DNA from: Eledone cirrhosa
Taxonomy: Eukaryota
Direction of reading: 5' to 3'
Assembly: GCA_964016885.1 (NCBI GenBank)
Contig: OZ024745.1
Location: 41,354,001-41,418,000 of the forward strand
Length of the DNA: 64,000 nucleotides
This document shows positions 1,728 through 55,064 of the stretch, in pieces. Made by a program: the position numbers and the translations under genes. Below the pieces are notes generated by a model that ran no database searches, was not told the origin of the DNA, and saw only the letters and a list, made by a program, of their open reading frames with translations. The stretch's first letter is position 1; each line of letters starts with the position of its first letter.

Positions 1728-1772
1728 AGTCACTGAAGAGGTCACAGAGTGTGTGACGAAAGGACTATGACT
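1728..1772 (+). ncRNA. Minimal type I hammerhead ribozyme (family A)
   Basis: agtca-CTGAAGA-g-gtcac/gtgac-GAAA-g-ga-c-TA-tgact. Confidence 0.8.
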
Positions 1773-10620: not shown

Positions 10621-10827
10621 ATATATATATATATATATTTGTAGATAAATGTACCAAAATATACAGTAGTGTCCAATCCGTATGAAGAACTCAATGTAAT
10701 CCAAATATCATGAAAAGAGAAGATGCATTCAAAGATTTTCGATGAAAATCATAGGAAAACAGAGTTAAGATAAATTAATAAAAACAATGAATAAAAACAA
10801 AGAACAAGTTCCTTATATTAAAAAATT

Positions 10828-10963
10828 CATCATTTTACGATCGTTTCTAGGATATATATATGTGTGTTGGTATGTATATCATATTGATCTATGTAAAAAT
10901 ATTACAAACTATCAGAGGAAATATACATACCTTCACATATATATGCTGTCTTCAGAAATAATG
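10828..10963 (-). ncRNA. Hammerhead ribozyme with ~100-nt stem II (family D, inverted copy)
   Basis: Minus strand: cattattt-CTGAAGA-long stem-GAAA-cgatcg-TA-aaatgatg. Confidence 0.78.
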
Positions 10964-13250
10964 AGATTTGTTTATTGAAAAAAACCAACAAAGATTTAAT
11001 ATGTTTGGGAACAGGTTTTTAATTGACAAATAGAAAAGTAGTAAGAGGTCAAGTTGATAGAATAGTAGTAGTAGAAATTTAATTTAGAGGTGTGCAGACT
11101 TATGTTTTGAATAGAAAGAATACTTTGAATGAAAAGAATACTTTGGGGATGAAAAGAGGTCAAGCCGGTGAAGTGTACACGAAAATTTGATGTTATTAAA
11201 GAATAGTGTTAAAAACGAAGGAAAGTAAAATTTTAGGGTAAGTGAGAAATACCAATCTTATTTAAACCACAAGCAATTTAGATCTATAACAAGAAATTAA
11301 ATTAATTAATAGGTATACTTATAGGGATAAATTTATATTACTTCATATGGATGTGATAAATAAGAATTAGATGTTATTAAAGAATGCTGTTAAAAACGAA
11401 GGAAAATGAAATTTTGGGATAAGGGTAGTAGTTAGAAATACCAATCTTATATAAACTTCAAGAAATCTAGATTCATAACAGGAAATTAAATTAATTTATA
11501 TGTATACTTTTATGAATTAATTTTAGGAAAAGAGAGCTGTAAGAGGGAAATAAAATTATGAAGTTCTCTGTAGTAAAGTACTAATTATAGCTTAACTAAA
11601 TTTAAAAAGATAATTATAATAATATGTAAAATATAAGTGTAAGGTGTATATTAATTAGGTTTATAATATTTGAAAGTTCTTCTAATTCTATGATTGCAAG
11701 ATATAATTAATTCTTGTCGCTTATTTAATAGGATATCCTTAGATTTCATTATTTCAAAAAGTTCCTGGGAACATAATCTACACTCATATCTGTTATTTTG
11801 ATAAGGGGTGGCCCTTTTGAACACACTCCAGGTCAGGTAGTAATCGATATTCTTTTTTCTATAATTATTAATTCTTTCAGCCAAGGATGTTGTATTAGCT
11901 AATCTTAACCTATCAGAAATCGAAAAAAATAAAAAACTTATTAGAACTTTCCTCAAAGACTATTACAATCTCACTATTACATTTGAAAAGACCAGTAAAA
12001 TAGTTAATTTCCTAGATATAACTTTAGACTTATCTACGGGTATCTACCAACCTTACCATAAGCCTAACCAAAACTTACATTACATACACTCACAATCCAA
12101 TCACCCTAGATCTATCCTTAAAAACCTAGCATATAATATCTCACTCAGAATCTCTAAACTTTCATCTAACCAGGATATATTCGATAAAAATGCGCCCTTT
12201 TATAACGAAGCTTTAGCTAGAAGCGACCACAAAAACAAATTAGTCTATATACCTTGCACCAATAATACTTCAAACATACAACCCAATATTACCAACAAAC
12301 ACCAAATGAAAAACCCACACCTAAATACCACTCACACTACACCCCAAAATACCAACCTAAAACTTAATTTCTCTACCTCTTCTCACATAAAATATAATGA
12401 CTTTCAAAAAACCATTCATCCTAATACTCCAATATACGTTAATAACATTACTAACAAAATTCCTAATAATCAGACTAAAACACCTAAATCAGTTAATCTA
12501 ACTAAACCTATATATAATAAATTCACTAATAGTAACTCTCTTAGTAAACATCCTGATACATCGTATAAATATAAAAAAACAATATCGAAACCGTAATAGA
12601 CGGGTCACTTGGTATAATGCTCTATTTAATCTACAAATTAAAGATGTTTACTATCCTAGAGAAAAAGTTCCCGCCAAACCATAAATACCATCAAATTTTA
12701 AATAGATCAACTGTCAAATTTTCCTACTCCACTGCCAAAAATATACAACAAAATATAAGTGCGTACAACGCATATAAATGTAAAGAAATCACGAATAAAC
12801 CACCAACACATCAAACCAACCATAATACTAAAATAAACCACAACAAACTACCATCTCCTTCACATATAACAAATTAAATAAATCCCACACCAAATTTGAC
12901 TAACTCCCCCGATATAATATTCACGAATGGTTGTAACTGTAGAAACAAAAGAAATTGCCCATTAAAGGGAAATTGTCTTATTAATAACATAGTAAAATTA
13001 GCACTAAGGACTCCACTTATTCATATATAGGAGCTACGTCTAACCAATTTAAAGTAAGACTTAATACCCACAAACATAGTTTTAAAAATGCCGCATTAGC
13101 TAATACAACATCCTTGGCTGAAACAATTAATAATTATAGAAAAAAGATTATCGATTACAACCTGACCTGGAGTGTACTCAAAAGGGCCACCCCTTATCAA
13201 AATAACAGATATGAGTGTAGATTATGTTCCCAGGAACTTTTTGAAATAAT

Positions 13251-14466: not shown

Positions 14467-15145
14467 TTGGTATTTCCATCTACTACCCTTATCCCCAAAT
14501 TTTATTTTCCTTCGTTTTTAACAACATTCTTTAATAACATCTAATTCTTATTTATCACATCCATATGAAGTAATATAAATTTATCCCTATAAGTACACCT
14601 ATCAATTAATTTAATTCCTTGCTATAGATCTAGATTCCTAGTGGTTTAAATAAGATTGGTATTTCTCACTTACCCTAAAATTTTACTTTCCTTCGTTTTT
14701 AACAACATTCTTTAATAACATCTAATTCTTATTTATCACATCCATATGAAGTAATATAAATTTATCCCTATAAGTACACCTATCAATTAATTTAATTCCT
14801 TGCTATAGATCTAGATTCCTAGTGGTTTAAATAAGATTGGTATTTCTCACTTACCCTAAAATTTTACTTTCTTTCGTTTTTAACACTATTCTTTAATAAC
14901 ATCAAATTTTCGTGTACCCTTCACCGGCTAGACCTCTTTTCATCCCCAAAGTATTCTTTTCATTCAAAGTATTCTTTCTATTCAAAACGTAAGTCTACAC
15001 CCCTCTTCCCCTAAATTAAATTTCTACTACCACTATTCTATCAACTTGACCTGTTACTACTTTTCTATTGGTCAATTCAAAACCTGTTCCCAAACAGACC
15101 TATTATATTAAATCTTTGTTGTTGTTTTTTTCAATAAACAAATCT

Positions 15146-18705: not shown

Positions 18706-18796
<91 letters not shown>

Positions 18797-18804
18797 CATA
18801 CCTA

Positions 18805-18891
<87 letters not shown>

Positions 18892-19072
18892 ATCTGTGTG
18901 TGTGCATGTATGTATATTGTAAATATATATTTATTCCTATTTTCCCTTTAAAAAATATGACAGGAGAGAAGATTAAGAAAAGTAGAAAATGCTAGATGCT
19001 AAATAATTCAGTAGATATATATATACACATATATACATACACACGCACACATGCATATGGATATTTGTATTA

Positions 19073-19686
<614 letters not shown>

Positions 19687-19720
19687 ATATATATATATAT
19701 ATATATACATATATATATAC

Positions 19721-19757
<37 letters not shown>

Positions 19758-19788
19758 TATATATATATACATATATATATACATATAA

Positions 19789-20064
<276 letters not shown>

Positions 20065-23046: not shown

Positions 23047-23283
23047 TGCTATCACTTTAACTATTGTATATGTGTGAGTGTATTTTTGTGTGTGTCTGTT
23101 TTCTTATGTATGTTTCATATGTGAATGGTTGTATGTGTGTGCATACACATACACACATATATATATTTATATATGTGTGTGTATGTGTATGCACACACAT
23201 ACAACCATTCACATATGAAACATACATAAGAAAACAGACACACACAAAAATACACTCACACATATACAATAGTTAAAGTGATA

Positions 23284-23286
<3 letters not shown>
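23047..23286. repeat. Near-perfect 240-bp palindrome
   Basis: The arms are reverse complements; the ORF track gives near-identical peptides on both strands. Confidence 0.95.
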
Positions 23287-24756: not shown

Positions 24757-24806
<50 letters not shown>

Positions 24807-24835
24807 CAGATGCATATCAATGCTAGCAAATATAT

Positions 24836-26230
24836 GGTTGTAGGCAGGCCGCTGTCTTATTAGCAAACCACTTTCCACTGATTGACCTCGATGTCACGTG
24901 TTCGATTCTTTTTGAATTTGCCACAGACGTAGAGGCAGTGATTTTCTCAATGGCTTGGAATTCAGTCCACGCTTCGCTATTTCCTATCCACTGAATTATT
25001 TTTTAATAAGTTTCCAGTGTCCTCGCTTTGCCTGGAAACTTACATGAGAATAGACTTTCCTGACGACGGAATGCTTCTTTATATTATTCTTCGGAAAATA
25101 TATTTACTCCATTCCAGAAACTAATTAGTTCGAAGTGATATTTTAGTAAGTAAGTTAATTTTATCATTTTCTTATTTTACGTCCCTTATATTATTGTTCT
25201 GCAACCCCATGCATTGAACCCCACTGTTATTAAGACAAAACCTATACATTTGCTAGCATTGATATGCATCTGTATGTATATATATGTTACTAGATATGAA
25301 TTCTTTATTATTATCTCCAAATTATGTGTCGAGCAATATTGGCCATGACTGCTGCTACGGTTGTAGGCAGGCCGCTGTCTTATTAGCAAACCACTTTCCA
25401 CTGATTGACCTCGATGTCACGTGTTCGATTCTTTTTGAATTTGCCACAGACGTAGAGGCAGTGATTTTCTCAATGGCTTGGAATTCAGTCCACGCTTCGC
25501 TATTTCCTATCCGCTGAATTATTTTTTAATAAGTTTCCAGTGTCCTCGCTTTGCCTGGAAACTTACATGAGAATAGACTTTCCTGACGACGGAATGCTTC
25601 TTTATATTATTCTTCGGAAAATATATTTACTCCATTCCAGAAACTAATTAGTTGGAAGTGATATTTTAGTAAGTAAGTTAATTTTATAATTTTCTTATTT
25701 TACGTCCCTTATATTATTGTTCTGCAACCCCATGCATTGAACCCCACTGTTATTAAGACAAAACCTATATATTTGCTAGCATTGATATGCATCTGTATGT
25801 ATATATATGTTACTAGATATGAATTCTTTATTATTATCTCCAAATTATGTGTCGAGCAATATTGGCCATGACTGCTGCTACGGTTGTAGGCAGGCCGCTG
25901 TCTTATTAGCAAACCACTTTCCACTGATTGACCTCGATGTCACGTGTTCGATTCTTTTTGAATTTGCCACAGACGTAGAGGCAGTGATTTTCTCAATGGC
26001 TTGGAATTCAGTCCACGCTTCGCTATTTCCTATCCACTTAATTATTTTTTAATAAGTTTCCAGTGTCCTCGCTTTGCCTGGAAACTTACATGAGAATAGA
26101 CTTTCCTGACGACGGAATGCTTCTTTATATTATTCTTCGGAAAATATATTTACTCCATTCCAGAAACTAATTAGTTGAATGTGATATTTTAGTAAGTAAG
26201 TTAATTTTATAATTTTCTTATTTTACGTCT

Positions 26231-26233
<3 letters not shown>
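24836..26233 (+). mobile_element. Tandem array of a 523-bp non-coding monomer (~2.7 units) with one HHR per unit (family F; 25055-25135, 25578-25658, 26101-26181)
   Basis: ctttc-CTGACGA-c-ggaatg..cattcc-a-GAAA-ctaattag-TT-ggaag at an exact 523-bp period. A short inverted piece lies at ~24795-24835. Confidence 0.88.
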
Positions 26234-26277
<44 letters not shown>

Positions 26278-26904: not shown

Positions 26905-26906
<2 letters not shown>

Positions 26907-27100
26907 GTGGGAGGTGAGTTTTATTGTAGTACATATGTTGATTTAAAACTGCACTATCCACAAGTGTTTTTTAACCTTCATGTCATGTCTTCCTGTTTTA
27001 TCTGATGAAAACACAAATATTATTGCATGATGATATTTGTTTTTGAAATGCGCATAATAAAATACATGGAACTCTTTTAACCATCTTTTGTTCTTATATA
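26905..27100 (+). mobile_element. Solo pseudo-LTR fragment of family G with HHR at 26996-27062
   Basis: Matches 42150-42320; its 5' ~27 nt are an inverted copy of 42383-42408. Confidence 0.85.
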
Positions 27101-27161: not shown

Positions 27162-29038
27162 ATAAATATCTTTAAGTCGTTTGGAAGCCTCGACAATGCA
27201 AATGGGTAAATCTCCGGGTAACAAGATCCGGTGGTGGAGAGAGAGATGTAAGTGGGTGTACATTGAGATGCGTGGTGTGTAAAGATGTGTAAATGTGTAG
27301 AAGAAAGAAGGGAAGAGTATAAAGGATAAAATAAAAATAACAACACAAGAGAGAGTTACCTTGGGAGAGATTTAATAGTCCCTATATATTTCGGATTCAC
27401 ATCCATCAACTGGGGTTTTTTTCCGAGGTAAAGGTTGTCTGTCGAACAGGTGCGAAACGCGTCCTCCGCTGTTTGTTGTTTTGAATATCTGAGGTATTCG
27501 GCAGAGCGCGCGTGAGCGTGAAATGGGGTCGATCGGGCAGAGGTCAGCGGCCGAATGAGGGAGTGGGGTGGCGCTAGCTGTCAGTCCATTCTCTGCCTGT
27601 TTGTTAAATGTTACTGAGTGTGTGTGTGCGTGTGTTGGTGTCTCGCTTGAGTGTGTGTGTGTGTGTGCGTGTGTAGTTGCCTTGTTCCTCTGTATTGGCA
27701 GTGTAGTATGTTCGTATGGTGGAATGCTACTGTGTGTGTGTGTGTTTGTGTGTGTGGAGTTGTCTCGTTTGTGTGAGCGTGTGTTGTGTGTTGCTACATC
27801 GTTTGTTACCTTAAACCAGCCATCTCATTTCCCTTATCTCTAATCGGTTGTTTATTTGCGGTTGCAGGCGTAACGTGCCGACGTTTCTTTCAGTCGCTAG
27901 AATTGTGACAATGGGCCTTCCGTCTTTGTTTCCGCATTTGTCTATGTGTTTCCGGAAAGACGAGGCCTGGTTTTAGTGTGTTCCTTGATCCGGATGTGCA
28001 AAGGTCGGATTGTGCTACCTATGTAGTATTGTTTGCACCTGTCACATTCTATCTTATACACGACGTATGTGCGTAGGCAACAGTTCGCATGGCGTATCGG
28101 GCAGTCTCTGAGGGAGCATGCGTCAGTAAATTTCCCGGGTTTCTTGGAGAGGCATCTTCGCAGGGAGGGGCCCGAGTGGGCCAGGTGGATGTCGAGGTCC
28201 TCCCTCCGTATAGCCTTGCGGATAGCGTTGGTGGTATTCTCGCCCAGATGTGGAATTTTAAGGAAGCACTTGCCTTGGGTGCCTCTCTGTCTCTTGTGTC
28301 TGGTGTCTCCTATTCTGTCTGTGATCGAGGTAGGGTACCCGTTCGTCTCCAGAACCTTGAGGAATCGCTTGGTATGAGTGACACCACTCGCGGGATCGCT
28401 GCATCTGTTTTTGATTCGCGCGATCTCGTTCGTGATGTATCCTCTTTTGGCACTGTTAGGGAGGGCGGACTTGTAGTGAACGAACAGGTCCCTGCAGGCT
28501 GCCTTTCGGTAGAAGTTGCAGTGGATCCTTCCCTGTTCCGTGATGTTGATTCGGAAGTCGAGGAGGGCAAGTGACCCGTCTTCGTTGGGGTGTTCAACAC
28601 TGAAGTCAATGTTCTCGTCCGTGTTGTTGAACGTCTCATAGATTCTTTTCGCCGTGTCTTGGGAAGATGTGAGGATGAGGATATCGTCCACGTACCTTGA
28701 GAAAAAGGCTACGGCGTTGGGGTGGCAGGCGTTGAGTGCCTTGCGTTCGAGGTTGTCCATGTAAGAGATCGCTAGCACACCTGATAGGCTTGATCCCATG
28801 GGCAATCCCGAGGTTTGTTGGTATGTTTGGTCAAGGAATCCGAAGTAGGTGTTGTCGACGACGATGGATAGGAGTTGGTGGATGTCAGTGGTGGTGAGCC
28901 CGAAGCAGTGTAAGTCGGTCGATTGGACGCGTTCCATCAGTATATTGACGGCCGGGAGTGCCGGGACCGAGGTGTAGAGAGCGACTACATCAAGGCTGAA
29001 GGCATATCTGTTATTCCTTCTGGTGTCGGGATCCATTT
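27160..29038 (-). mobile_element. 5'-truncated PLE (RT + GIY-YIG ORF 27942..29036, frameshift near the C-terminus)
   Basis: SLDVVALYT, GLPMGSSLS, RYVDD, LLDF, VVYKIEC..YYIGSTIRPLHIRIKEH. Confidence 0.92.
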
Positions 29039-29039
29039 G

Positions 29040-30380
29040 AAATAAATAAAATAACAGGAGGCTGGCTGGACTGGTGTAAATCCTTGAAAGTTTTATTAAA
29101 CTATGATCATTTCAATGACCGGGTTCCATATGAATTCGGTGATATCATCAGGTATTCGAAATATAACAAAGGAATATGTAAAAAACCATGGGTCCGAAAA
29201 ATCAGAGACAGAGAGGACGACTGACCAGCTAGCTGCTTTCACCTCGGCCAGTCGCCCTCAAAGTAATGGCAACTCAGTCTACTAATGACCATCTGGTGAG
29301 GGGGCGAAGGCTTATAATGCACGACCACCTCTCCGTCAAAGAATAAAAAAGGGGAGGAAAGAAAGAAAGGAAGAAAGAAGAAAAAAGAAAGAAGTCAGCC
29401 TATTTTGACCGCCATATTATACTTATACCTATAAACTCCAGGCTTAGGCATAACTGTTAGCTGTATAATGCATCTACGGGCACGTAAATAAACCTCTCAT
29501 GTGTGAATTAATAGTATTCGTTTGGTATAGACGATGGCCTGTCGAAATTGTAGACTTCCCGCTAGCACACCCGGGGCCTAAGGTAGCTAGTTCCTAGACT
29601 ACTCGGAAAGATTAATTTCCATTTCTTTCGCTAGACGATACCACTTGAAACTGGCCGACACGTGGTTAGGAGGTGATGGCTGGGATTCACAATCGAAGGC
29701 TTTAATCTTTACTCTATATCCCACTCTGATATCTTATCGAGATTAACTTTTTCATGTAAGACTCTCTCTCTGTAAGTTCATTAAATAAATCTCGCTACTT
29801 TAACCTTTAATTTTTTAATAATTTTTTAATTTTTTAAATTTATTTTTCAATTTATTATTTTTTAATTTAATTTCATCCTATAACTCGTTACATAAGTTTA
29901 ACGTTCCAATTTTCTGTTCACACATTAGACCATACAGACACCCATTATATATGCCTTTGTTAAAATATAGATTCTTTGGAATAACATTTTTCGCGGCGTT
30001 TTCTAGCATGACTATAGTGTGACCCTTACGCTGACTTCTTTCTTTTTTCTTCTTTCTTCCTTTCTTTCCTCCCCTTTTTTATTCTTTGACGGAGAGGTGG
30101 TCGTTCATTATAAGCCTTCGCCCCCTCACCAGATCGTCATTAGTAGACTGAGTTGCCATCACTTTGAGGGCGACTGGCCGAGGTGAAAGTAGCTAGTTGG
30201 TCAGTCGTCCTCTCTGTCTCTGATTTTTCGGACCCATGGTTTTTTACATATTCCTTTGTTATATTTCGAATATCTGATGATATCACCGGATTCATATGGA
30301 ACCCGGTCATTGAAATGATCATATTATAATAAACCTTTCAAGGATTTGCACCAGTCCAGCCTCCTGTTATTTTATTTATA
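29040..30380. mobile_element. Inverted pseudo-LTR pair, family I (arms ~29040-29400 and ~30030-30380; HHRs at 29098-29155 on - and 30270-30327 on +)
   Basis: The arms are reverse complements; CTGATGA-tatcaccgg..ccggtcatt-GAAA-tgatca-TA. Confidence 0.8.
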
Positions 30381-34821: not shown

Positions 34822-34844
34822 TTATATATATATATATATATATA

Positions 34845-36277
34845 CAATTAAGTTAAAAATGTACATCTACATATGCATACTGAAATACTAGTATGCATAT
34901 GAATACACACACGTATACATATGCAGATGTACCAAGTCTTTCACTGGTTACTTTACTGTGAGTAATCCAGCTATTCTGTATGTAAACACACAGACAAACC
35001 GGTTTTTAGAGTCATACTGGTTTTCGAGGAAACACCTTTCCTCTATTCTCCAGAAAGCCAGACAAGGAATATTGAACTAGTTTCGTTGTTGTTACAACTC
35101 ATCAGCAATATTTACCTATCTACCGGCCTTTCTGGAGAATCGTAAAAGCACATATCGTTATATGCTTTTTCTATGAAAATTAGTAGTGGGCAGACTAATT
35201 TGCATAGAGTGTGAGTACGTACCGGTTCAACGGAGACGATAAAAACAAATAACGAAACGAAATTAAATTTCGTTTCGTTTGTAACTCACTTTTGTATGAC
35301 TGACGCTTAAACAATTAAGTTAAAAATGTACATCTACATATGCATACTGAAATACTAGTTGAACCGGTACGTACTCAAACTCTATGCAAATTAGTCTACC
35401 CACTACTAATTTTCATAGAAAAAGTATATAACGATATGTGCTTTTACGATTCTCCAGAAAGGCCGGTAGATAGGTAAATATTGCTGATGAGTTGTAACAA
35501 CAACGAAACTAGTTCAATATTCCTTGTCTGGCTTTCTGGAGAATAGAGGAAAGGTGTTTCCTCGAAAACCAGTATGACTCTAAAAACCGGTTTGTCTGTG
35601 TGTTTACATACAGAATAGCTGGATTACTCACAGTAAAGTAACCAGTGAAAGACTTGGTACATCTGCATATGTATACGTGTGTGTATTCATATGCATACTA
35701 GTATTTCAGTATGCATATGTAGATGTACATTTTTAACTTAATTGTTTAAGCGTCAGTCATACAAAAGTGAGTTACAAACGAAACGAAATTTAATTTCGTT
35801 TCGTTATTTGTTTTTATCGTCTCCGTTGAACCGGTACGTACTCACACTCTATGCAAATTAGTCTGCCCACTACTAATTTTCATAGAAAAAGCATATAACG
35901 ATATGTGCTTTTACGATTCTCCAGAAAGGCCGGTAGATAGGTAAATATTGCTGATGAGTTGTAACAACAACGAAACTAGTTCAATATTCCTTGTCTGGCT
36001 TTCTGGAGAATAGAGGAAAGGTGTTTCTTCGAAAACCAGTATGACTCTAAAAACCGGTTTGTCTGTGTGTTTACATACAGAATAGCTGGATTACTCACAG
36101 TAAAGTAACCAGTGAAAGACTTGGTACATCTGCATATGTATACGTGTGTGTATTCATATGCATACTAGTATTTCAGTATGCATATGTAGATGTACATTTT
36201 TAACTTAATTGTTTAAGCGTCAGTCATACAAAAGTGAGTTACAAACGAAACGAAATTTAATTTCGTTTCGTTATTTG

Positions 36278-36284
<7 letters not shown>
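34845..36284. mobile_element. 467-bp non-coding monomer (family J): one inverted unit plus two direct units; HHRs at 35068-35112 (-), 35477-35521 (+) and 35944-35988 (+)
   Basis: aatattg-CTGATGA-gttg/caac-GAAA-ctag-TT-caatatt; copies nearly identical; flanked by (TA)n. Confidence 0.92.
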
Positions 36285-36749: not shown

Positions 36750-39182
<2,433 letters not shown>

Positions 39183-39191
39183 TTACTACTG

Positions 39192-39404
39192 ACAGTTGAA
39201 AATTGCAAACTCGACTGTCACCACATATCATGAACCTGAAGATTGCGAAAGCATGAAAGTACTTGTTCAATTAACACTTAGAATTTAATATTCTATCATA
39301 CTATTTCATCATAATACCATTATATATATTTTAAAGGATTGTAAATAAAACGAGTAAATCAGACAAAGTTGGAATTCCTCTTATTAATATAATCTTCTAT
39401 ACAC
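39192..39404 (+). mobile_element. Solo pseudo-LTR of the Neptune-like PLE (family K); HHR at 39231-39269
   Basis: Near-identical to 48952-49146. Confidence 0.9.
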
Positions 39405-39447
39405 AATCATACACACCCGTGTATATTTACCTATCTATATCTCTCTC

Positions 39448-39501
<54 letters not shown>

Positions 39502-39502
39502 C

Positions 39503-39533
<31 letters not shown>

Positions 39534-39726
39534 CAAATATATATATATATACATATATATACATATACATATATATATACATATACATATATATACATAT
39601 ATATATACTTATATATATACACATATATATACACATATACATACACATATATATATATATACACACACATATATATATATATATATATACTTATATATAC
39701 ATATATATATATATGTATATATATAC

Positions 39727-39757
<31 letters not shown>

Positions 39758-39770
39758 CATATATATATAC

Positions 39771-39837
<67 letters not shown>

Positions 39838-39845
39838 CATATATA

Positions 39846-39883
<38 letters not shown>

Positions 39884-39908
39884 ATATATATGTGTATATA
39901 TATATATG

Positions 39909-39940
<32 letters not shown>

Positions 39941-39942
39941 TA

Positions 39943-42408
39943 ATATAAGATCAAAAGATGGTTAAAGGAGTTCCATGTATTTTATTATGCTCATTTCAAA
40001 AACAAACATCATCATGCAATAATATTTGTGTTTTCATCAGATAAAACAGGAGAACATGATATGAAGGCTAAAAAACACTTGTGGATAGTGCAGTTTTAAA
40101 TCAACATATGAAAAGTGGTTTTAGATTGATGTGTGATATTGGGAAAAATATTTTATTTAGAGAGGGGAGGTGGAAAGGATGAAAAAGGGGAGGGGATGAG
40201 AGGGAGAGATGGGTGATAGAGAGAAAGAGATAGTTTTTATAACTGAGAGGAGATATATTGTTTTACATAGAGAGGTTGAAAATCATGATCATTCCAATAA
40301 TTTTAATAAAAGACCTAGATACAATAACATAATCTGGTATAATGCTCCTTTCTCCATCTCTATTAATAACAATATTCCTAAATTATTTTTTAGTGCCTTA
40401 AATAAATGCTTCCCTCCCTCACATATCTATAGTAAAATATTTAACAAACACACCATCAAATTTTCTTATTCTACATCCTCCAATATTTCCAACATCATCT
40501 CTAAACACAACAATAAAATACTAAATACTAAATCTCTTCCTTCCAGCATTGAATTTCATAATAACAGTAATAGTACTCCCGACGTCATTGTAAACCCTAG
40601 GCTAACTTCTGTAAACCCAAATACAACGTCAAACACAACTTCGCTAAATGTTCATAATCCAAATCTAAATCAAGAAACTATTATTCCTATTATTCCTATC
40701 GCAAACAACTTCTCCAATCCAATTCCTTCTATAGATAACACTAGGTCACTCATTAATAATCTCTCTAATTGCAACTGCCGCATTAAAAATAAATGTCCTC
40801 TCAACAACCATTGTCTCGATAAAAACTTAATTTATGAATGTAAAATTATAACTAGCACCAATTCCTTCACCTATTTTGGCTCCACTTCCACCTCTTTTAA
40901 AGCTCGTCTCTATAATGATCATTCATCTTTCCAATACAAACTTAAAAGAACCAACACTGCTCTCTCAGAACTCATATGGTCCTTAAAAGACAAAAACATT
41001 AAATATACCATCTTTTGGAAGAAGGTTTCTTCTGCATCCTCTTGAACAGCTCTCTATCTAAAATCTGTATTCTCTGCCTAAATGAAAAATTTACCATTAT
41101 CTCTAACCTAGATTCTATAATAAATAGACGTACAGATTTATTTTCTATCTGCCTGCATAAATTCCATAGGACTTTTCACAAAGTATACAGTTAATATTCA
41201 ATTCTTTATCAATTTAGAATCTTTTCTCAAAGGCACATATACATACACCTCTTTAAAATATACCCATCTTCCCACCTTACTTTAAAGGGCATTATACACT
41301 CTATAATACTTGTTTACTCATTACCCTCATTCTATCTTCACCTTGTAAAATCCTTCATAACATATACATTTATTTTTTTGACGTTAGAATATTCATCCGC
41401 AATCATTATTATTTTTTCTCTCTATCATAAATCTTTTTAATCTCAATTTCATCCTTAATTTATTATTTTTTTCTCCCCATCAACGAACTCATTCTTAATA
41501 CATATTAACTCTTTATTCGCATATATTATCAATTCCTTCAATATACAAACTTTAACTTCACATTATTTTTCTCAAATCCTTCTACACACAAACCTTAATC
41601 ATTTTTCTCTTCGTTAATTTTGAAATTGCCACAATACTTATCAACACACACTTTTTTTGACGTTAGAATATTCATCCACAATTATTATTTTTTCTCTCTA
41701 TCTTCATACATAAATTCCCTTCGTTAATTTTCAAATTCCTTTAATTTATACATTATCTTCCAACGGTTCTCAACGTCTCTATGTAAAACAATATACCTTT
41801 TTCTCAGTTATAAAAACTATCTCTTTCTCTCTATCACCCATCTCTCCCTCTCCACCTTCACTCTCATCTCCTCCCCCTTTTTTCATCCTCCCCCCCTCCC
41901 TAAATAAAATATTCTTTCCTCGAACGTATCCTCCCTTCGTTAATTTTCAAATTTTTAATTTATACATTATCTTCCAACGGTTTTCAACCTCTCTATGTAA
42001 AACAATATATCTCCTCTCAGTTATAAAAACTATCTCTTTCTCTCTATCACCCATCTCTCCCTCTCATCTCCTCCCCTTTTTCATCCTTTCCACCCCCCCT
42101 CTCTAAATAAAATATTTTTCCCAATATCACACATCAATCTAAAACCACTTTTCATATGTTGATTTAAAACTGCACTATCCACAAGTGTTTTTTAGCCTTC
42201 ATATCATGTTCTCCTGTTTTATCTGATGAAAACACAAATATTATTGCATGATGATGTTTGTTTTTGAAATGCGCATAATAAAATACATGGAACTCCTTTA
42301 ACCATCTTTTGATCTTATATTATGTATACTCCAGTCCTACAAACTGTAGAGTGCTTCTTATCCGATATCTGCATTGCTTTATTGTACTACAATAAAACTC
42401 ACCTCCTA
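39943..42408 (+). mobile_element. 5'-truncated PLE (linker + GIY-YIG, ~40285-41193) with an inverted 5' pseudo-LTR (39943-40280); family G HHRs at 39980-40046 (-) and 42217-42283 (+)
   Basis: IIWYNAPFS, CNCRIKNKCPLNNHCL, LIYEC..YFGSTSTSFKARL; ttttat-CTGATGA-..-GAAA-tgcgca-TA-ataaaa. Confidence 0.9.
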
Positions 42409-42453
42409 CATATATATATACATATATATATATATGTATATATATATGTATAT

Positions 42454-42508
<55 letters not shown>

Positions 42509-42532
42509 TGTATATATATATATATACATAGA

Positions 42533-42605
<73 letters not shown>

Positions 42606-42620
42606 GTATATATATATATG

Positions 42621-42651
<31 letters not shown>

Positions 42652-42677
42652 GTATATATATACATATATATATATAC

Positions 42678-42740
<63 letters not shown>

Positions 42741-42772
42741 CATATATATCTATGTATATATATATACATGTA

Positions 42773-42809
<37 letters not shown>

Positions 42810-42903
42810 TCCAATATATATATACATATATATATACGTATATATATATACATATATATATACATATATATATATACATATATATATATACACGTATATA
42901 TAC

Positions 42904-42934
<31 letters not shown>

Positions 42935-42997
42935 CATATACATATACATATATATATACATATATATATAGATACACATATATATACACATATATAT

Positions 42998-43110
<113 letters not shown>

Positions 43111-43503
43111 CATATATATGTATATATATACATATATATATATATGTATATGTAATCACATGGTACCATGGGCTCTGCACTACGTGTCAATAATGGTCAC
43201 AAGTGTAGTCTTTGTACCAGAGTTTTCAAGTCGCTGGCTGGACTAAAAAGACACATTCGTTCAGCGCATCGGTAGGGATTCTTCTACATGGATATAAAGT
43301 AGTGGCCGTACTCGAAAACGAGTTGGCAGCCACTATGTATATATGCATGTATGTATATATGTATGTATATATTTGTATGTATGTATATATATGTATGTAT
43401 GTATACATGTATGTATGTATGTATGTATGTATATGTATGTATGTATATATGTATGTATATGTGTGTATGTATGTATATATATATGTGTATATGTGTATAT
43501 GTT

Positions 43504-46191: not shown

Positions 46192-46797
46192 ATGTCAGAT
46201 CACCAGTTGGTGCTGCTGGTAACATGTATCCCAGTACAACCTGTCTCATGGTCGGGTCGTTGGCGACTAAACTGGCAACCCCGCCAAGGTTTCTTGGTGA
46301 GGAGGGTGACTTTGGACATCCTGCAGGTCTAAAAGCACAACCTGTCAAAGAGCAAAGAAGCTCTTAAGATTCAATGGCCATCCAAAATCACCGGGAGAGA
46401 ATACCCCTTAGCCTTTGTCAAGGCAGAATTCTAGGAGAAGGAAAACTCTGATATAACACCTGCAACCCTGATGGTATCCAATGATGTTGACTTGTTCTTC
46501 TTTTTGGTAAATATCATCTTGGTTAAGAGAGTGGGACTGGCTTTGTGCAGTGCCTTTGCTCACTATAAAAGCTTCACGGCACAGGCATTGCTTTATATCT
46601 GGAGATATCTCTGCACTTGTCATCACAGGGTACAATGGGCCCAGCACTATGTGTCAGTAATTGTCACAAGTGTAGTGTTTGTACCAGAGTTTTCAAGTCG
46701 CTGGCTGGACGAAAATGTCACACTCGTAGGGGTTCGGTAGGGGTTCTCCTACATGGATATAAAGTAGTGGCCGTACTCGAAAACGAGTTGGCAGCCA

Positions 46798-46800
<3 letters not shown>
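46192..46800 (+). mobile_element. Non-autonomous RTE-derived element, copy 2
   Basis: Colinear with 43504-44115. Confidence 0.75.
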
Positions 46801-46852
<52 letters not shown>

Positions 46853-46858
<6 letters not shown>

Positions 46859-49146
46859 ACATTCTATCATGAAATACCGTCAAATATAGACCACAACATC
46901 ATGAAGAAGATCAACAACCTGGCTTCAAAATACCACAACTCATTTACTGATAAGGAAAGAGACTACATCACCAATTTTGGCCTACCGAAAGTTCACAAGT
47001 CAAAAGAAATACAACTGGCAGTAAGAGAACAAAACAGTGAGTACATTAAATTATTACACCCAAAAGACTTAAAACTTAGACCTATTATAGCTCGTCCAAC
47101 ATGCCCCACTCACCGTCTAAGCAATTTTGTTGACATTATTTTGAAACCACTATCTATTCACATACCCAGTTTCATCCGGGATGATATCGACTTCCTGTCC
47201 CATCTTCCCAAAACCACGGAAACGAATTCACTTCTACTCAGTTTTGATGTGGTAAGCCTTTACACCAACATTACACATGATTTAGGAATAAAGGCGGTTA
47301 AATACTGGGTGGAAAAACATAGAGAAGTGATTCCCATTAGATTCACAGCGCCATTTATATTAGACGCAGTTAAACATATTCTGGAAAACAACACTTTCTT
47401 CTTCAATGGAAAGAATTACATCCAAATTAGAGGCACAGCGATGGGAACGAAGTTTGCTCCCGTTTATGCGAACTCTGTAATGGGATACTTAGAACAACAA
47501 CTCTACCAAGAAATAGAGGAAAAATATAGTACTGACTTTAGAAAGTACATTGAAAAATCTTGGAAGAGATACCTTGACGACTGTTTTATCATCTGGACAG
47601 AATCTCTAGATACTCTGGATGAGTTCAATATCCTCCTGAATAACCTACACCCATCTCTCCAATTCACAAAAGAGATGAGTAGGACCAAATTACCATTCCT
47701 AGATATAATGATAATCAAAAACGACACCACCATTACCACGGATATATATTATAAACACACAGACACCCATTAATATCTGAATTTTAAGTCGTGCCATCCA
47801 CCTCATACAAAACGCAACTTCCCATACTGCCTAGCCAGAAGAATTTGTACCATTGTAGAAGATACGAATACCAGGTACAAACGCCTAACAGAACTAAGAG
47901 AATTTTTGCTCAAACAAAAATACCCATCTCTACTTATAGAAAATGGCATACAGCGGGCTATAAAAATACCTATACAACAACTTAGAACAACCCAAGGAAG
48001 AAGAAACCAAGAACTGGTCATACCATTTATAATGACACACAACCCATGTCACCAGAATATCTTCAACACTGCCAAAGCAAACCTACCGATCATTGCTCAA
48101 AGTAATGAATTAAAAGGCTTAATCACAGATCGATCTTTGACTCTTAGTAAAAGACAGCCAAAAAATTTGAAGCAATTGCTAACAAAAGCAAAGTTTGACC
48201 TTAACAACAAAGACCAATCATTCACTGTATCTAAATGCAATGATAATCGATGCGGCACATGTCAATCCATACACGCCGGTCAATATATGAAAACAAAAAC
48301 TGGAAAAATATTCCCAAATGCAAATATGAACTGCAAAAGCAGAAATCTAATTTACTGCATTAAATGCCCGAATTGTGAAGAACTATATGTCGGTCAAACT
48401 GGAAATGCACTATCGGAACGTGCACGGGTACACCGTCAACAAGTCAGAGACCCAAATGTCCGTCAGATACCCCTAAGCGGCCACCTGGCAACATGTGGTC
48501 AGGGAATATTTATAATATTCCCATTCTACAAATTACACAGCCCAAGTGAAATCAAGAGAAACATCAAAGAAAAGAATTTTATTGATAAATTCAAACCCAA
48601 GCTAAATGAACAATAATAACGCCTAGGGGTATTACTTCTACTACCACTATGACCACGACCACTAACAACAACAACAACAACAATAATAATAATAATAAAA
48701 GTGATGTTGATGGTGATGATTAATAGAAAATGCTATTTTCATCATTTCAAAAAGCAAAACAATTGATACGTTGGATATGACTATTGGTCGTTAGCATGCT
48801 CAACCAGCCGTGACGCTTAAACCAATCAGCTGTAGTAATTCAGTGAAACTACACACTGATTGGTCGAAATACAGTTTACAGGGCTTTGCATTCTGGAGCC
48901 ACTTTTCTCTGTATAAAATGTATAAAAGGAAGGAAATTTACCCATCTCATTACAGTTGAAAATTGCAAACTCGACTGTCACCACATATCATGAACCTGAA
49001 GATTGCGAAAGCATGAAAGTACTTGTTCAATTAACACTTAGAATTTAATATTCTATCATACTATTTCATTATAATACCATTATATATATTTTAAAGGATT
49101 GTAAATAAAACGAGTAAATCAGACAAAGTTGGAATTCCTCTTATTA
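46853..49146 (+). mobile_element. 5'-truncated Neptune-like PLE (ORF 46901-48616, one in-frame stop at 47771-47773) with a 3' pseudo-LTR
   Basis: GLPKVHK, RPII, FDVVSLYT, GTAMGT, RYLDD, PFLD, linker CNDNRCGTC, LIYCIKC..YVGQT..R. The two track ORFs share a frame. Confidence 0.93.
48991..49029 (+). ncRNA. Minimal type I hammerhead ribozyme (family K)
   Basis: tgaac-CTGAAGA-t-tgc-gaaa-gca-t-GAAA-gtac-TT-gttca. Confidence 0.85.

Positions 49147-53986: not shown

Positions 53987-53990
<4 letters not shown>
53000..53990. pseudogene. Decayed Neptune-like PLE RT fragments in inverted arrangement (~53000-53610 minus; ~53665-53990 plus)
   Basis: GTAMGTKVASTYADLV and LSNFLDILLKP..SYIRD..LNHLPK are homologous to the 46901 ORF. 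Confidence 0.8.
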
Positions 53991-54030
<40 letters not shown>

Positions 54031-54034
<4 letters not shown>

Positions 54035-54992
54035 AGACGTAAAATAAGAAAATTATAAAATTAACTTACTTACTAAAATATCACTTCCAACTAATTAATT
54101 TCTGGAATGGAGTAAATATATTTTCCGAAGAAGATATAAAGAAGCATTCCGTCGTCAGGAAAGTCTATTCTCATGTAAGTTTCCAGGCAAAGCGAGGACT
54201 CTAGAAACTTATTAAAAATAATTCAGTGGATAGGAAATAGCAAAGCGTGGACTGAATTCCTAGCCATTGAGAAAATCACTGCCTCTGCGTCTGTGGAAAA
54301 TTCAAAAAGAATCGAACATGTGACATCGAGGTCAATCAGTGGAAAGTGGTTTGCTAATAAGACAGCGGCCTGCCTACAACCGTAGCAGCAGTCATGGCCA
54401 ATATTGCTCGACAAATAATTTGGAGATAATAATAAAGAATTCATATCTAGTAACATATATATACATACAGATGCATATCAATGCTAGCAAATATATAGGT
54501 TTTGTCTTAGTAACATTGTGGTTCAATGCATGGGATTGCAGAACAATAATATAAGAGACGTAAAATAAGAAAATTATAAAATTAACTTACTTACTAAAAT
54601 ATCACTTCCAACTAATTAGTTTCTGGAATGGAGTAAATATATTTTCCGAAGAATAATATAAAAAAGCATTCCGTCGTCAGGAAAGTCTATTCTCATGTAA
54701 GTTTCCAGGCAAAGCGAGGACTCTGGAAACTTATTAAAAAATAATTCAGTGGATAGGAAATAGCAAAGCGTGGACTGAATTCCTAGCCATTGAGAAAATC
54801 ACTGCCTCTGCGTCTGTGGCAAATTCAAAAAGAATCGAACACACAACATCGAGGTCAATCAGTGGAAAGTGGTTTGCTAATAAGACAGCGGCCTGCCTAC
54901 AACCGTAGCAGCAGTCATGACCAATATTGCTCGACAAATAATTTGGAGATAATAATAAAGAATTCATATCTAGTAACATATATATACATACA
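54031..54992 (-). mobile_element. Second array of the family F monomer (~1.8 units); HHRs at 54084-54163 and 54605-54685
   Basis: Reverse complement of the 24836-26233 unit, ending at the same 3' position next to (TA)n. Confidence 0.88.
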
Positions 54993-55064
54993 TGTGTATC
55001 ACATATATATACATATATATACATACATATATATACATATACATACATTCATGTCTATCACATC

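What the first reader, a model, noticed from the sequence alone, without database searches (positions are those of the whole stretch)
24795..26233. 523-bp HHR-bearing monomer arrayed at two loci
Seen: 2.7 units here and 1.8 units on the minus strand at 54031-54992. Both arrays end at the same 3' base (..ttttacgtctctta, ~50 nt after the HHR) against (TA)n but have different 5' ends. This locus starts with a ~40-nt inverted fragment. No credible ORF is present. Inference: a mobile non-autonomous multimer with a fixed priming end, on the long side for animal non-LTR retrozymes.
Basis: partly seen in the sequence, partly recalled or inferred. Interest (0 to 1): 0.75.

Follow-up and report, generated by a model that had tools for sequence, protein, structure and literature searches.

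The report
Hammerhead-bearing tandem retroelement in (TA)n tracts
A 523-base repeat carrying a predicted self-cutting hammerhead RNA motif sits in short head-to-tail arrays at many places of this 3-Gb animal genome, always ending at one of two fixed bases against (TA)n, and was likely copied there by the reverse transcriptase of Penelope-like elements; it is a well-marked new family of a known kind.

Summary
There are 2.69 units of a 523-bp repeat at 24833-26237 (+), with a 46-nt inverted piece in front, and 1.85 units at 54028-54992 (-). Both arrays end at ...TTTTACGTCTCTTA against (TA)n and share no flanks. The own-genome search flagged 2725 candidate places and scored 40. These held 67 arrays: 29 end at unit position 359, 33 at 476-490, and the 5' ends are scattered. 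Rfam finds no hammerhead in the unit. A hand-built type-I descriptor does, with 0.07 hits expected per shuffled window. A 72%-identical, roughly 556-bp sister family (5637 motif hits) keeps the catalytic core while helices I and II change by compensatory substitutions. Twenty-three insertions are head-to-head pairs. In 18 of the 19 pairs that could be classed, one arm ends at 359 and the other at 479 (p = 3.6e-5). The sister family shows the same in 14 of 14 pairs. Partial tandems, an inverted 5'-truncated copy, an extension at one end only and a (TA)n target are together the published signature of Penelope-like element insertion. Three diverged Penelope-like elements lie in the window. No partner sharing sequence was found, and no RNA data were available. 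Verdict: a non-autonomous, retrozyme-type element that is a new member of a known kind. Circular RNA and self-cleavage are inferred, not shown.

The parts
24759..24806 (.). (TA)24 tract on the left side of locus 1; the target microsatellite
   Evidence: TRF; sequence
24794..24839 (-). Inverted 5'-truncated arm (unit positions q407-453). Its outer end merges into the (TA)n tract.
   Evidence: BLAST map of L001; row C5:41378794-41378839
24833..26237 (+). Array of 2.69 units of 523 bp (24833-25355, 25356-25878, 25879-26237), ending at q359
25054..25136 (+). Hammerhead copy in unit 1. Core intact; helix I broken by G to C at position 1.1.
25577..25659 (+). Predicted intact type-I hammerhead of unit 2: helix I ACUUUC/GGAAGU; core CUGACGA; unpaired C; helix II GGAAUG/CAUUCC with a 36-nt hairpin extension; unpaired A; GAAA; palindromic helix III ACUAAUUAGU. 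Predicted cleavage between 25653 and 25654.
   Evidence: descriptor; shuffle control; covariation; no Rfam match
25689..25726 (+). Most conserved non-ribozyme block (q334-371, ATTTTCTTATTTTACGTCC...). It contains 3' end A (q359) inside a predicted unpaired UUAUAUUAUU stretch.
   Evidence: alignment with the sister family; unpaired probability 0.84
25827..25837 (+). Second 3'-end site B (q472-482, UUUAUUAUUAU), used by 33 of 67 arrays in the genome; internal in this locus
   Evidence: unpaired probability 0.75
26100..26182 (+). Hammerhead copy in unit 3. Core intact; helix I weakened (GGAAGU changed to GAAUGU).
26233..26276 (.). (TA)22 tract abutting the 3' end of locus 1
53990..54032 (.). (TA)21 tract abutting the 3' end of locus 2
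54028..54992 (-). Array of 1.85 units on the minus strand (q439 to q359), 96-97% identical to locus 1
54604..54686 (-). Predicted intact hammerhead of locus 2, upstream unit
54082..54164 (-). Hammerhead of locus 2, downstream unit: C15.2 changed to U (a G.U pair in helix III) and a 1-nt deletion in the loop extension
54978..55045 (.). Imperfect (TA/CA)n tract at the 5' side of locus 2

Best explanation
This is a 523-bp non-coding repeat family with a predicted hammerhead ribozyme in each unit, dispersed as short arrays in (TA)n microsatellites, and it was likely inserted by target-primed reverse transcription carried out by Penelope-like element (PLE) enzymes. SHOWN: the arrays are dispersed and their flanks are unrelated. 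The 3' ends fall at two fixed positions (q359 and about q479), each directly against (TA)n, while the 5' ends vary. Many insertions are head-to-head pairs with both 3' ends facing outward, and within a pair one arm ends at q359 and the other at q479. The hammerhead core is conserved and its helices covary with a 72%-identical sister family that uses the same two homologous ends. INFERRED: the unit is transcribed, and the template RNA is continuous across the ribozyme cleavage site, because the ends lie 61 and 181 nt downstream of it. That implies either a ligated circle or an uncleaved multimer. A PLE endonuclease would nick (TA)n. The freed (TA)n 3'-OH would anneal to one of two accessible UA-rich single-stranded stretches of the RNA. 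The reverse transcriptase would then run 0.1 to more than 9 units around or along the template. In about half of the events the other target strand, which is also (TA)n, would prime at the other site (twin priming), and the two cDNAs would join by 1-7 nt of microhomology.
For: Dispersal and ends: the own-genome search flagged 2725 candidates and scored 40, giving 145 matches. These form 67 same-strand arrays of 0.07-9.28 units. Their 3' ends lie at q359 in 29 arrays, at q476-490 in 33, at q453 in 1, and elsewhere in 4. Their 5' ends range over q1-476. In 19 loci, all 25 ends of these two classes are followed directly by a TA run, and the flanks beyond it differ. Contigs of coded run X1 show a loose end reading (TA)n after 25714 in 13 contigs. 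Inverted pairs: there are 23 head-to-head pairs, 20 of them with a 1-11 nt overlap at the junction. Of the 19 pairs that can be classed, 18 are mixed (359 plus 479), 1 is 479/479 and none is 359/359 (binomial p = 3.6e-5). The 21 unpaired arrays split 10/10/1. The sister family uses the homologous ends q377 and q499-502, and 14 of 14 pairs are mixed. Hammerhead: the descriptor gives 10 hits in the window against a mean of 0.07 (maximum 1) in 100 shuffles. On 39 distinct rows, 93.7% of cells are paired against 36-47% when partners are slid, and 7 pairs change on both sides against 2.6 in shuffles, reached by 0 of 500 shuffles. Between the families the core changes only at N7. Helix II GGAAUG/CAUUCC becomes GCAAUG/CAUUGC. 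Helix I loses one base pair on both strands. The loop-2 hairpin keeps its pairing with a different sequence. PLE context: three RT plus GIY-YIG copies lie in the window, and those read to their 3' ends stop against (TA)n. The genome search with PF01541 flagged 10596 candidates, and all 150 scored passed the cut-off. PMC8557442 (passages) describes partial tandems, an adjacent inverted 5'-truncated copy, an extension often present at only one end, and (TA)n targeting. PMC4209133 (passages) describes PLE hammerheads with a long helix II, an unpaired nucleotide after A9 and a palindromic helix III. Site choice: the two end sites are the long T/A-only stretches with the highest predicted unpaired probability, 0.84 and 0.75, against 0.23-0.37 for the unused or rarely used stretches q246-256, q263-274, q411-419 and q445-453.
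Against: No Rfam hammerhead model matches the unit, the sister family or an older lineage at E up to 5-10. The motif carries an extra unpaired A between C11.1 and G12 as well as the C after A9, and its catalytic competence is untested. Two of the three ribozyme copies in locus 1 have broken helix I. No run on record as RNA was listed, so transcription, cleavage and circles are not shown. No autonomous element sharing sequence was found: 0 of 3 PLE copies in the window and 0 of 30 GIY-YIG loci at their 3' ends. My relaxed descriptor also found no hammerhead downstream of the endonuclease in those 30 loci. Units within an array are only slightly more alike than units of different loci (98.1% against 97.2%), and opposite arms are no more alike than background (97.3%; 7 of 12 comparisons above the median). 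One unpaired T/A stretch (q306-313, probability 0.83) is not used as an end, so accessibility alone does not set the ends. The covariation rests on about four lineages, and the structure was derived from these same sequences.
Confidence: 0.72

Rival explanations
1. The same PLE-type retrotransposition, but without any role for the ribozyme or a circle. The unit would be a solo-pLTR-like remnant of a Penelope-like element. The arrays would come from longer-than-unit linear transcripts of existing arrays, and the hammerhead would be a passenger or relic.
For: PLE hammerheads cleave poorly in vitro (PMC4209133, passages). PMC8557442 notes that elements without hammerheads proliferate well. Two of three copies in locus 1 have a broken helix I. 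Within-array identity is only 0.9 points above between-locus identity. Rfam finds no match.
Against: The core is invariant except at N7, and helices I and II carry compensatory changes across families that are only 72% identical overall. That indicates selection on the fold in the master copies. The near-absence of same-class end pairs (1 of 19 and 0 of 14) is easier to explain if the template carries exactly one site of each class, as a monomer would.
Confidence: 0.17
2. A DNA-level element: a Helitron-like or other rolling-circle DNA transposon, or extrachromosomal circular DNA of a satellite that reintegrates at A/T-rich sites.
For: Helitrons insert between A and T (recalled, not from a call), so (TA)n would suit them. 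Rolling-circle copying yields tandem units.
Against: The 5' ends are variable and the 3' ends fixed, which is the opposite of fixed transposon termini. The ends read ...CTCTTA and ...TTATTAT, with no 5'-TC or CTRR-3' termini (the Helitron termini are recalled). The unit holds no frame longer than 84 aa. The inverted arms with a one-sided extension match the description of PLE insertions.
Confidence: 0.04
3. Ordinary satellite DNA spread by segmental duplication and unequal crossing-over, with (TA)n tracts growing out of the unit's own TA-rich stretches.
For: The unit has internal TA-rich stretches at the end positions, and the genome is extremely rich in (TA)n.
Against: Where the far side of the (TA)n tract is visible, the unit does not resume there (L001, L004, L005, L010 and L027). 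The flanks are unrelated between loci. Arrays are short, 0.07-9.3 units. The coupling of the two end classes in inverted pairs has no explanation under this model.
Confidence: 0.03

Closest known systems
Metazoan non-LTR retrozymes (Cervera and de la Pena 2020, PMC7229834, passages read; Li et al. 2026 preprint 10.64898/2026.07.22.740005, abstract and Results read)
   Same: Non-coding, AT-rich (35.8% GC) tandem units, each with a type-I hammerhead. Dimers to multimers dispersed in the genome. No LTR and no ORF. Proposed dependence on PLE enzymes.
   Different: The ribozyme here is not the canonical type with loop-loop contacts. It resembles the PLE type and escapes every Rfam model. The unit (523-556 bp) is longer than the 150-450 bp first described, though inside the 51-972 bp range of the preprint. 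Strict (TA)n insertion, two fixed alternative 3' ends and inverted arms were not mentioned for retrozymes in the passages I read. circRNA has not been shown here.
Hammerheads of Penelope-like elements (Cervera and De la Pena 2014, PMC4209133, passages read)
   Same: Long helix II (6 bp plus extension), an unpaired nucleotide between A9 and G10.1, a G10.1-C11.1 pair, and a palindromic helix III suited to a two-ribozyme (dimeric) fold.
   Different: There is an additional unpaired A between C11.1 and G12, and a 36-nt hairpin extension on helix II. Helix I is 5-6 bp rather than 4-5 bp. The motif sits in a 523-bp unit with no ORF rather than in the pLTR of a coding element.
Insertion architecture of endonuclease-bearing Penelope-like elements (Craig et al. 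2021, PMC8557442, passages read)
   Same: 5' truncation, partial tandems, an inverted 5'-truncated copy adjacent to the 5' end, an extension (tail) often present at only one end, and insertion into (TA)n (reported for Naiad and Hydra clades; a microsatellite bias for Neptune).
   Different: The one-sided extension is 120 bp here against 30-40 bp. The unit is non-autonomous and is repeated up to 9.3 times. The PLE copies in the window carry a C-x4-C-x2-C linker before GIY-YIG, which fits the Neptune-type linker in the paper's description. No tree was built.
pDo500 satellite of Dolichopoda cave crickets (PMC2837043, passages read)
   Same: A roughly 500-bp tandem unit with a hammerhead proposed to act as a double hammerhead, with compensatory changes in its stems.
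   Different: pDo500 is described as satellite DNA. Dispersed (TA)n insertions with fixed 3' ends are not described in the passages I read.
Twin priming of L1 elements
   Same: Both strands of the cut target prime reverse transcription, giving an inverted 5' arm joined to a direct 3' arm by microhomology.
   Different: Here both arms end at defined internal sites of a repeated or circular template, and the two sites exclude each other.

Membership tests
Hammerhead ribozyme, type I | Conserved core CUGANGA ... GAAA ... and a cleavage triplet ending in a non-G base | tested here: met
   CUGACGA / GAAA / GUU is present in all 5 units of the window. Across the 39 distinct rows, the two families differ in the core only at N7; a few individual copies also carry single core substitutions.
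Hammerhead ribozyme, type I | Three helices around the core, supported by covariation | tested here: met
   93.7% of cells paired against 36-47% when slid. Seven pairs change on both sides, reached by 0 of 500 shuffles. Caveats: about four lineages only, and the structure was derived from these sequences.
Hammerhead ribozyme, type I | Helix II starts directly after A9 and ends directly before G12 (G10.1-C11.1 next to the core) | tested here: not met
   An unpaired C follows A9 and an unpaired A precedes G12, and both are conserved in the sister family. The 5' unpaired nucleotide is known in PLE hammerheads (PMC4209133). I did not find the 3' one described.
Hammerhead ribozyme, type I | Match to a curated covariance model (Rfam clan CL00010) | tested here: not met
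   No hammerhead hit at gathering score or at E up to 10 or 5. The neighbouring 467-bp family does hit HH9 with 38.6 bits, E = 4.8e-8.
Hammerhead ribozyme, type I | Self-cleavage | not testable with these tools
   Needs in vitro transcription of a dimeric construct.
Metazoan non-LTR retrozyme | Short tandem non-coding units of low GC, each with a type-I hammerhead; no LTR, PBS or PPT | tested here: met
   523-bp units, 35.8% GC, longest frame 84 aa, one hammerhead motif per unit. PBS and PPT were not searched for separately.
Metazoan non-LTR retrozyme | Canonical hammerhead with loop 1 - loop 2 tertiary contacts | tested here: inconclusive
   The architecture resembles the PLE type. Tertiary contacts cannot be judged from sequence here.
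Metazoan non-LTR retrozyme | Expression as linear and circular monomer RNA | not testable with these tools
   No holder on record as RNA was listed. The contigs laid cannot show RNA ends.
PLE-mobilised (non-autonomous Penelope-like) element | 5' truncation and partial tandem copies with a fixed 3' end | tested here: met
   62 of 67 arrays end at q359 or q476-490, and 5' ends range over q1-476.
PLE-mobilised (non-autonomous Penelope-like) element | Inverted 5'-truncated copy directly adjacent to the 5' end | tested here: met
   23 head-to-head pairs among 67 arrays, 20 of them with junction overlaps of 1-11 nt. Window locus 1 has a 46-nt inverted arm.
PLE-mobilised (non-autonomous Penelope-like) element | Extension (tail) at only one end of the insertion | tested here: met
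   18 of 19 classed pairs have one arm ending at q359 and the other 120 nt further on at about q479. The sister family shows this in 14 of 14 pairs. The length differs from the published 30-40 bp.
PLE-mobilised (non-autonomous Penelope-like) element | Microsatellite, here (TA)n, target | tested here: met
   25 of 25 class-A or class-B 3' ends in 19 loci abut a TA run.
PLE-mobilised (non-autonomous Penelope-like) element | Sequence shared with the pLTR or 3' end of an autonomous PLE of the same genome | tested here: not met
   0 of 3 PLE copies in the window. 0 of 30 GIY-YIG loci at their 3' ends; L060 merely has a neighbouring array. Only 30 loci from 10596 candidates were looked at, so this is far from exhaustive.
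Helitron / rolling-circle DNA transposon | Fixed 5'-TC and CTRR-3' termini with a 3' hairpin (features recalled, not from a call) | tested here: not met
   5' ends are variable, and the 3' ends read CTCTTA and TTATTAT.
Segmental duplication / plain satellite | Shared flanks, or the unit resuming on the far side of the (TA)n tract | tested here: not met

The most novel reading that the evidence does not exclude
The two ends of a cut (TA)n tract prime reverse transcription on one and the same monomeric circular RNA, each at a different accessible UA-rich loop (q359 and q479). One template with one site of each kind would explain three things at once: why paired arms almost never share an end class, why arms run for several units (rolling circle), and what the long-unexplained one-sided 'tail' and inverted copies of Penelope-like insertions are.
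Probability: 0.3. Interest if true: 0.7.

Novelty: new member of a known kind. Interest (0 to 1): 0.47.

Why it matters
The transposition cycle of Penelope-like elements, and how retrozyme RNAs are primed for reverse transcription, are still undefined. PMC8557442 (passages) calls for mechanistic work on the tandem/inverted structures and on the microsatellite bias. This family and its sister offer thousands of young, short, fully readable insertion products, with two discrete end sites that exclude each other within a pair. That is a natural data set on which priming-site choice, twin priming and rolling-circle copying can be tested by counting. It also shows a hammerhead variant, with unpaired nucleotides on both sides of the base of helix II and a long helix II, that current covariance models miss. 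Genome surveys based on those models would therefore likely undercount such elements.

Tried and rejected
Rfam searches found no hammerhead in the 523-bp unit or its relatives. I tried the whole window at gathering score, the locus and the 111-nt motif at E up to 10, the whole window at E up to 0.05, and sister and older copies at E up to 5. The hits on (TA)n to miRNA families are low-complexity noise.

My first hand reading of the motif used the first GAAA, with helix II as CGGA/UUCG. I dropped it because helices I and III could not form.

RNA evidence: no RNA holder was listed. The four runs laid are contigs of unknown kind and show only that the family is very abundant.

Partner search:
- DNA comparison of the units with the window found no similarity to the three PLE copies.
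The Pfam family PF01541 was used instead.
- 0 of 30 loci shared sequence at their 3' ends.
- My relaxed min-hammerhead scan found none downstream of the endonuclease in those 30 loci. This may reflect the limits of the descriptor.

Testing whether the two arms of a pair come from one template by overall identity was inconclusive. Locus-specific loop variants are shared by both arms in L007 and L009.

A snap-back (hairpin) origin of the inverted arms was rejected because the arms differ in both end class and length. Simple L1-style twin priming on a linear RNA predicts that the 479-ended arm starts near q360. The 5' ends of those arms do not cluster there.

Earlier notes of this scan held nothing for this genome or this sequence.

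I did not identify the organism, and I ran no further search on it.
Full report
OBSERVATION. Unit positions (q) count from window 25356 = q1. The repeat finder gives three copies in register at 24833, 25356 and 25879, spaced 523 bp apart and 99% identical over the 300 nt compared. A BLAST map of the locus (L001 and L028 converted to window coordinates) shows a 46-nt inverted piece (q407-453) at 24794-24839. It is followed by + units up to 26237 (q359), which makes 2.69 units. The second array runs on the minus strand over 54028-54992 (1.85 units, q439 to q359). Both end ...TTTTACGTCTCTTA directly against (TA)n. A self-comparison of the window finds nothing shared beyond the (TA)n tracts. No frame longer than 84 aa exists in a trimer of the unit.

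IS THERE A HAMMERHEAD? Rfam says no: nothing at gathering score, nothing at E up to 10 on the locus or on the 111-nt motif alone. Read by hand, each unit contains the following:
- helix I, 5' strand ACUUUC;
- the core CUGACGA;
- an unpaired C;
- helix II GGAAUG ... CAUUCC, closed by a 36-nt segment that itself forms a 6-bp hairpin;
- an unpaired A;
- GAAA;
- a palindromic helix III, ACUAAUUAGU;
- the triplet GUU, followed by the helix I 3' strand GGAAGU.
A descriptor with these rules finds 10 sites in the window. One hundred composition-matched shuffles average 0.07 sites (maximum 1). No shuffle reaches the strength of the 523-type hit. In locus 1 only the middle unit passes; units 1 and 3 carry single changes in helix I.

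The decisive evidence is comparative. A loose end seen when public contigs were laid on the locus led to a 21-nt word that occurs 5637 times in the genome and 0 times in the reversed control, spaced about 556 bp apart. This sister unit is 71.6% identical to the 523-bp unit (368 of 514 aligned positions). Between the two families:
- the core changes only at the free position N7;
- both unpaired nucleotides are kept;
- helix II changes G-C to C-G;
- helix I loses one base pair on both strands and turns a G.U pair into G-C;
- the loop-2 hairpin keeps its pairing in the same columns with three compensatory pairs.
Two further lineages (L024 and L042) add more compensatory pairs. On 39 distinct rows, 93.7% of cells pair, against 36-47% when partners are slid. 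Seven pairs change on both sides against 2.6 in shuffles, a value reached by 0 of 500 shuffles. Two caveats apply: there are only about four lineages, and the structure was derived from these sequences. Rfam also misses the sister and older copies. I therefore call it a predicted hammerhead of the Penelope-like-element type. Its long helix II, the unpaired nucleotide after A9 and the palindromic helix III match PMC4209133 (passages). The extra unpaired A before G12 is a feature I did not find described. Activity is untested.

GENOME-WIDE ANATOMY. The window lies in a 3.0-Gb assembly. The unit gave 2725 first-look candidates. Forty were scored, yielding 145 matches. Merged, these form 67 same-strand arrays of 0.07-9.28 units. 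The 3' ends are at q359 in 29 arrays, at q476-490 in 33, at q453 in 1 and elsewhere in 4. The 5' ends are spread over q1-476. In 19 loci read with their flanks, all 25 ends of the two main classes are followed at once by a TA run. The sequence beyond differs from locus to locus. Where the far side of the tract is visible, the unit does not resume. This refutes segmental duplication, and it refutes growth of (TA)n from within an array.

The ends do not coincide with the predicted cleavage site (q298|299). They lie 61 and 181 nt downstream of it, so the copied template was continuous across that site.

INVERTED PAIRS AND COUPLED ENDS. Twenty-three insertions are head-to-head: a minus arm, then a plus arm, with both 3' ends facing outward. 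Twenty of them overlap by 1-11 nt at the junction. In 19 pairs both outer ends fall into the two main classes. Of these, 18 are mixed (one arm ends at q359, the other at about q479), one is 479/479 and none is 359/359. With the two classes equally frequent, the binomial p is 3.6e-5. The 21 unpaired arrays split 10, 10 and 1.

The sister family uses the homologous positions (q377 and q499-502) and shows 14 mixed pairs out of 14 in 12 loci. Those loci were picked through a word that lies between the two end sites. Pairs of two short-ended arms were therefore under-sampled, while pairs of two long-ended arms were not, yet none was seen. The two other hammerhead families in the window show the same unequal ends.

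This is the published picture of Penelope-like insertions: partial tandems, an inverted 5'-truncated copy next to the 5' end, and an extension often present at only one end, of 30-40 bp there and 120 bp here (PMC8557442, passages). The same paper reports (TA)n targeting for the Naiad and Hydra clades and a microsatellite bias for Neptune.

WHO MOVES IT. The window holds three reverse-transcriptase plus GIY-YIG copies: 387-1394 (+), 27942-29111 (-), and 46763-48616 (+). They are only 27-28% identical to one another at the protein level. Two of them show a C-x4-C-x2-C linker before GIY-YIG, which fits the Neptune-type linker in the paper's description; no tree was made. Those read to their 3' ends stop against (TA)n and carry hammerhead-like motifs 120-200 nt upstream. 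One motif (48996) again has unpaired bases on both sides of the base of helix II. The genome search with PF01541 flagged 10596 candidates, and all 150 scored passed the cut-off.

None of these elements shares sequence with the unit. That holds for 0 of 3 copies in the window and for 0 of 30 GIY-YIG loci at their 3' ends. The specific partner is not identified. The class of partner is inferred from the insertion signature.

MECHANISM.
Shown: dispersed insertion into (TA)n; two fixed 3' ends conserved across two families; variable 5' ends; head-to-head arms with coupled, unequal ends and microhomology junctions; a conserved, covarying hammerhead fold.
Inferred: a PLE endonuclease nicks (TA)n. 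The freed (TA)n 3'-OH anneals to a UA-rich stretch of the unit RNA, and the reverse transcriptase copies 0.1 to more than 9 units. In about half of the events the opposite target strand, which is also (TA)n, primes as well, and the two cDNAs join by microhomology.

The two end sites are the long T/A-only stretches with the highest predicted unpaired probability: 0.84 at q354-363 and 0.75 at q472-482. Other TA-rich stretches are mostly paired (0.23-0.37) and are rarely or never used. One short unpaired stretch (q306-313) is also unused, so accessibility is not the whole rule. The monomer folds more stably than shuffles (-122.2 kcal/mol, z = -4.3).

The near-absence of same-class pairs is most simply explained if both target ends engage one RNA that carries one site of each class, that is, a monomer. 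Arms longer than one unit then call for a circle. This last step is the boldest reading and rests on no RNA data. Units within an array are only slightly more alike than units of different loci (98.1% against 97.2%), and overall arm-to-arm identity is not informative.

COMPARISON AND NOVELTY. In workings and in most defining features, this is a metazoan non-LTR retrozyme, or non-autonomous derivative of a Penelope-like element (PMC7229834; 2026 preprint). The unit length is above the 150-450 bp first described, but within the preprint's range of 51-972 bp and close to the roughly 500-bp pDo500 hammerhead satellite of cave crickets (PMC2837043). Four things are particular here: the ribozyme variant that escapes Rfam, strict (TA)n insertion, two conserved end sites that exclude each other within pairs, and the abundance of young copies. 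I rate it a new member of a known kind and of moderate interest, chiefly as a data set for the unresolved Penelope-like insertion mechanism.

LIMITS. No RNA runs were available. Only 40 of 2725 candidates and 30 of 10596 endonuclease candidates were read. bioRxiv supplements were closed, and the supplements of the PubMed Central papers were not opened. Their element lists and hammerhead tables might already contain similar families or the core variant.

Noticed in passing
window 34841-36284: A second, unrelated hammerhead-bearing tandem family with a 467-bp unit. A minus arm (34841-35359) lies head-to-head with a plus array (35358-36284). Both outer ends abut (TA)n and are unequal (about q391 against q460). 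Its hammerhead is canonical (CUGAUGA, helix II GUUGU/ACAAC, helix III ACUAGU) and hits Rfam HH9 with 38.6 bits, E = 4.8e-8, below the gathering score of 52. The hits are at 35052-35123 (-), 35466-35537 (+) and 35933-36004 (+).
   Followed up: partly
window 26905-27094; 39948-40282 (-) and 41981-42409 (+): A third hammerhead-like family (core CUGAUGA, helix III AUGCGCAU, helix I 8 bp) found by my descriptor at 27002 (+), 40040 (-) and 42223 (+). The 39948-42409 element is again a head-to-head structure lying between two long (TA)n tracts. It contains frames of 281 and 130 aa with no Pfam match.
   Followed up: partly
window 387-1394 (+), 27170-29111 (-), 46763-48616 (+): Three deeply diverged Penelope-like element copies with reverse transcriptase and C-terminal GIY-YIG, 27-28% identical at the protein level. 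The third has one in-frame stop at 47771-47773. Copies of the 3' ends of the first and third families also turn up in the flanks of 523-bp arrays elsewhere (L008 and L004). (TA)n tracts therefore act as shared landing sites.
   Followed up: partly
window 1733-1761 and 48996-49030: Hammerhead-like motifs near the 3' ends of two of the Penelope-like copies. The first reads CUGAAGA, G, GUCACA/UGUGAC, GAAA (the minimal PLE type). The second reads CUGAAGA, U, UGC-GAAA-GCA, U, GAAA, AGUACU, with unpaired bases on both sides of helix II as in the 523-bp unit. Neither is reported by Rfam at E up to 0.05 among the 150 rows listed.
   Followed up: partly
window 36757-39947, 18709-20062, 42410-43151 and many others: Extreme (TA)n content: tracts of 3.2 kb, 1.35 kb and 0.74 kb, plus dozens of shorter ones, in 64 kb of 31% GC sequence.
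   Followed up: no
window 23047-23286: A 240-bp near-perfect palindrome, 98.3% self-complementary. It draws spurious miRNA-precursor hits from Rfam, for example mir-5014 at 81 bits.
   Followed up: no
window 10770-11523 against 15339-14577; 14497-14908: A large inverted duplication (about 760 bp, 91% identical) carrying a 181-bp tandem repeat (2.3 copies, 97% matches). Its nature is unknown.
   Followed up: no
L073, L076, L077, L078, L080 (G000 contig C1): In several sister-family insertions the long-ended arm (q499-502) is followed by a (TC)n run before the (TA)n tract. The short-ended arm abuts (TA)n directly.
   Followed up: no
window 57506-57539 (+): A single weak hammerhead-like descriptor hit (helix I of 4 bp with two G.U pairs), inside the second copy of a 207-bp duplicated segment (57155-57361 and 57471-57677). 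It may be chance.
   Followed up: no
coded runs X4 and X5 (organisms B and C), laid on window 25166-25874: Low-depth contigs from two other coded organisms carry stretches of the unit. Some have only 2 differences in 195-230 nt; others are about 8% different. Whether these organisms are close relatives was not examined.
   Followed up: no
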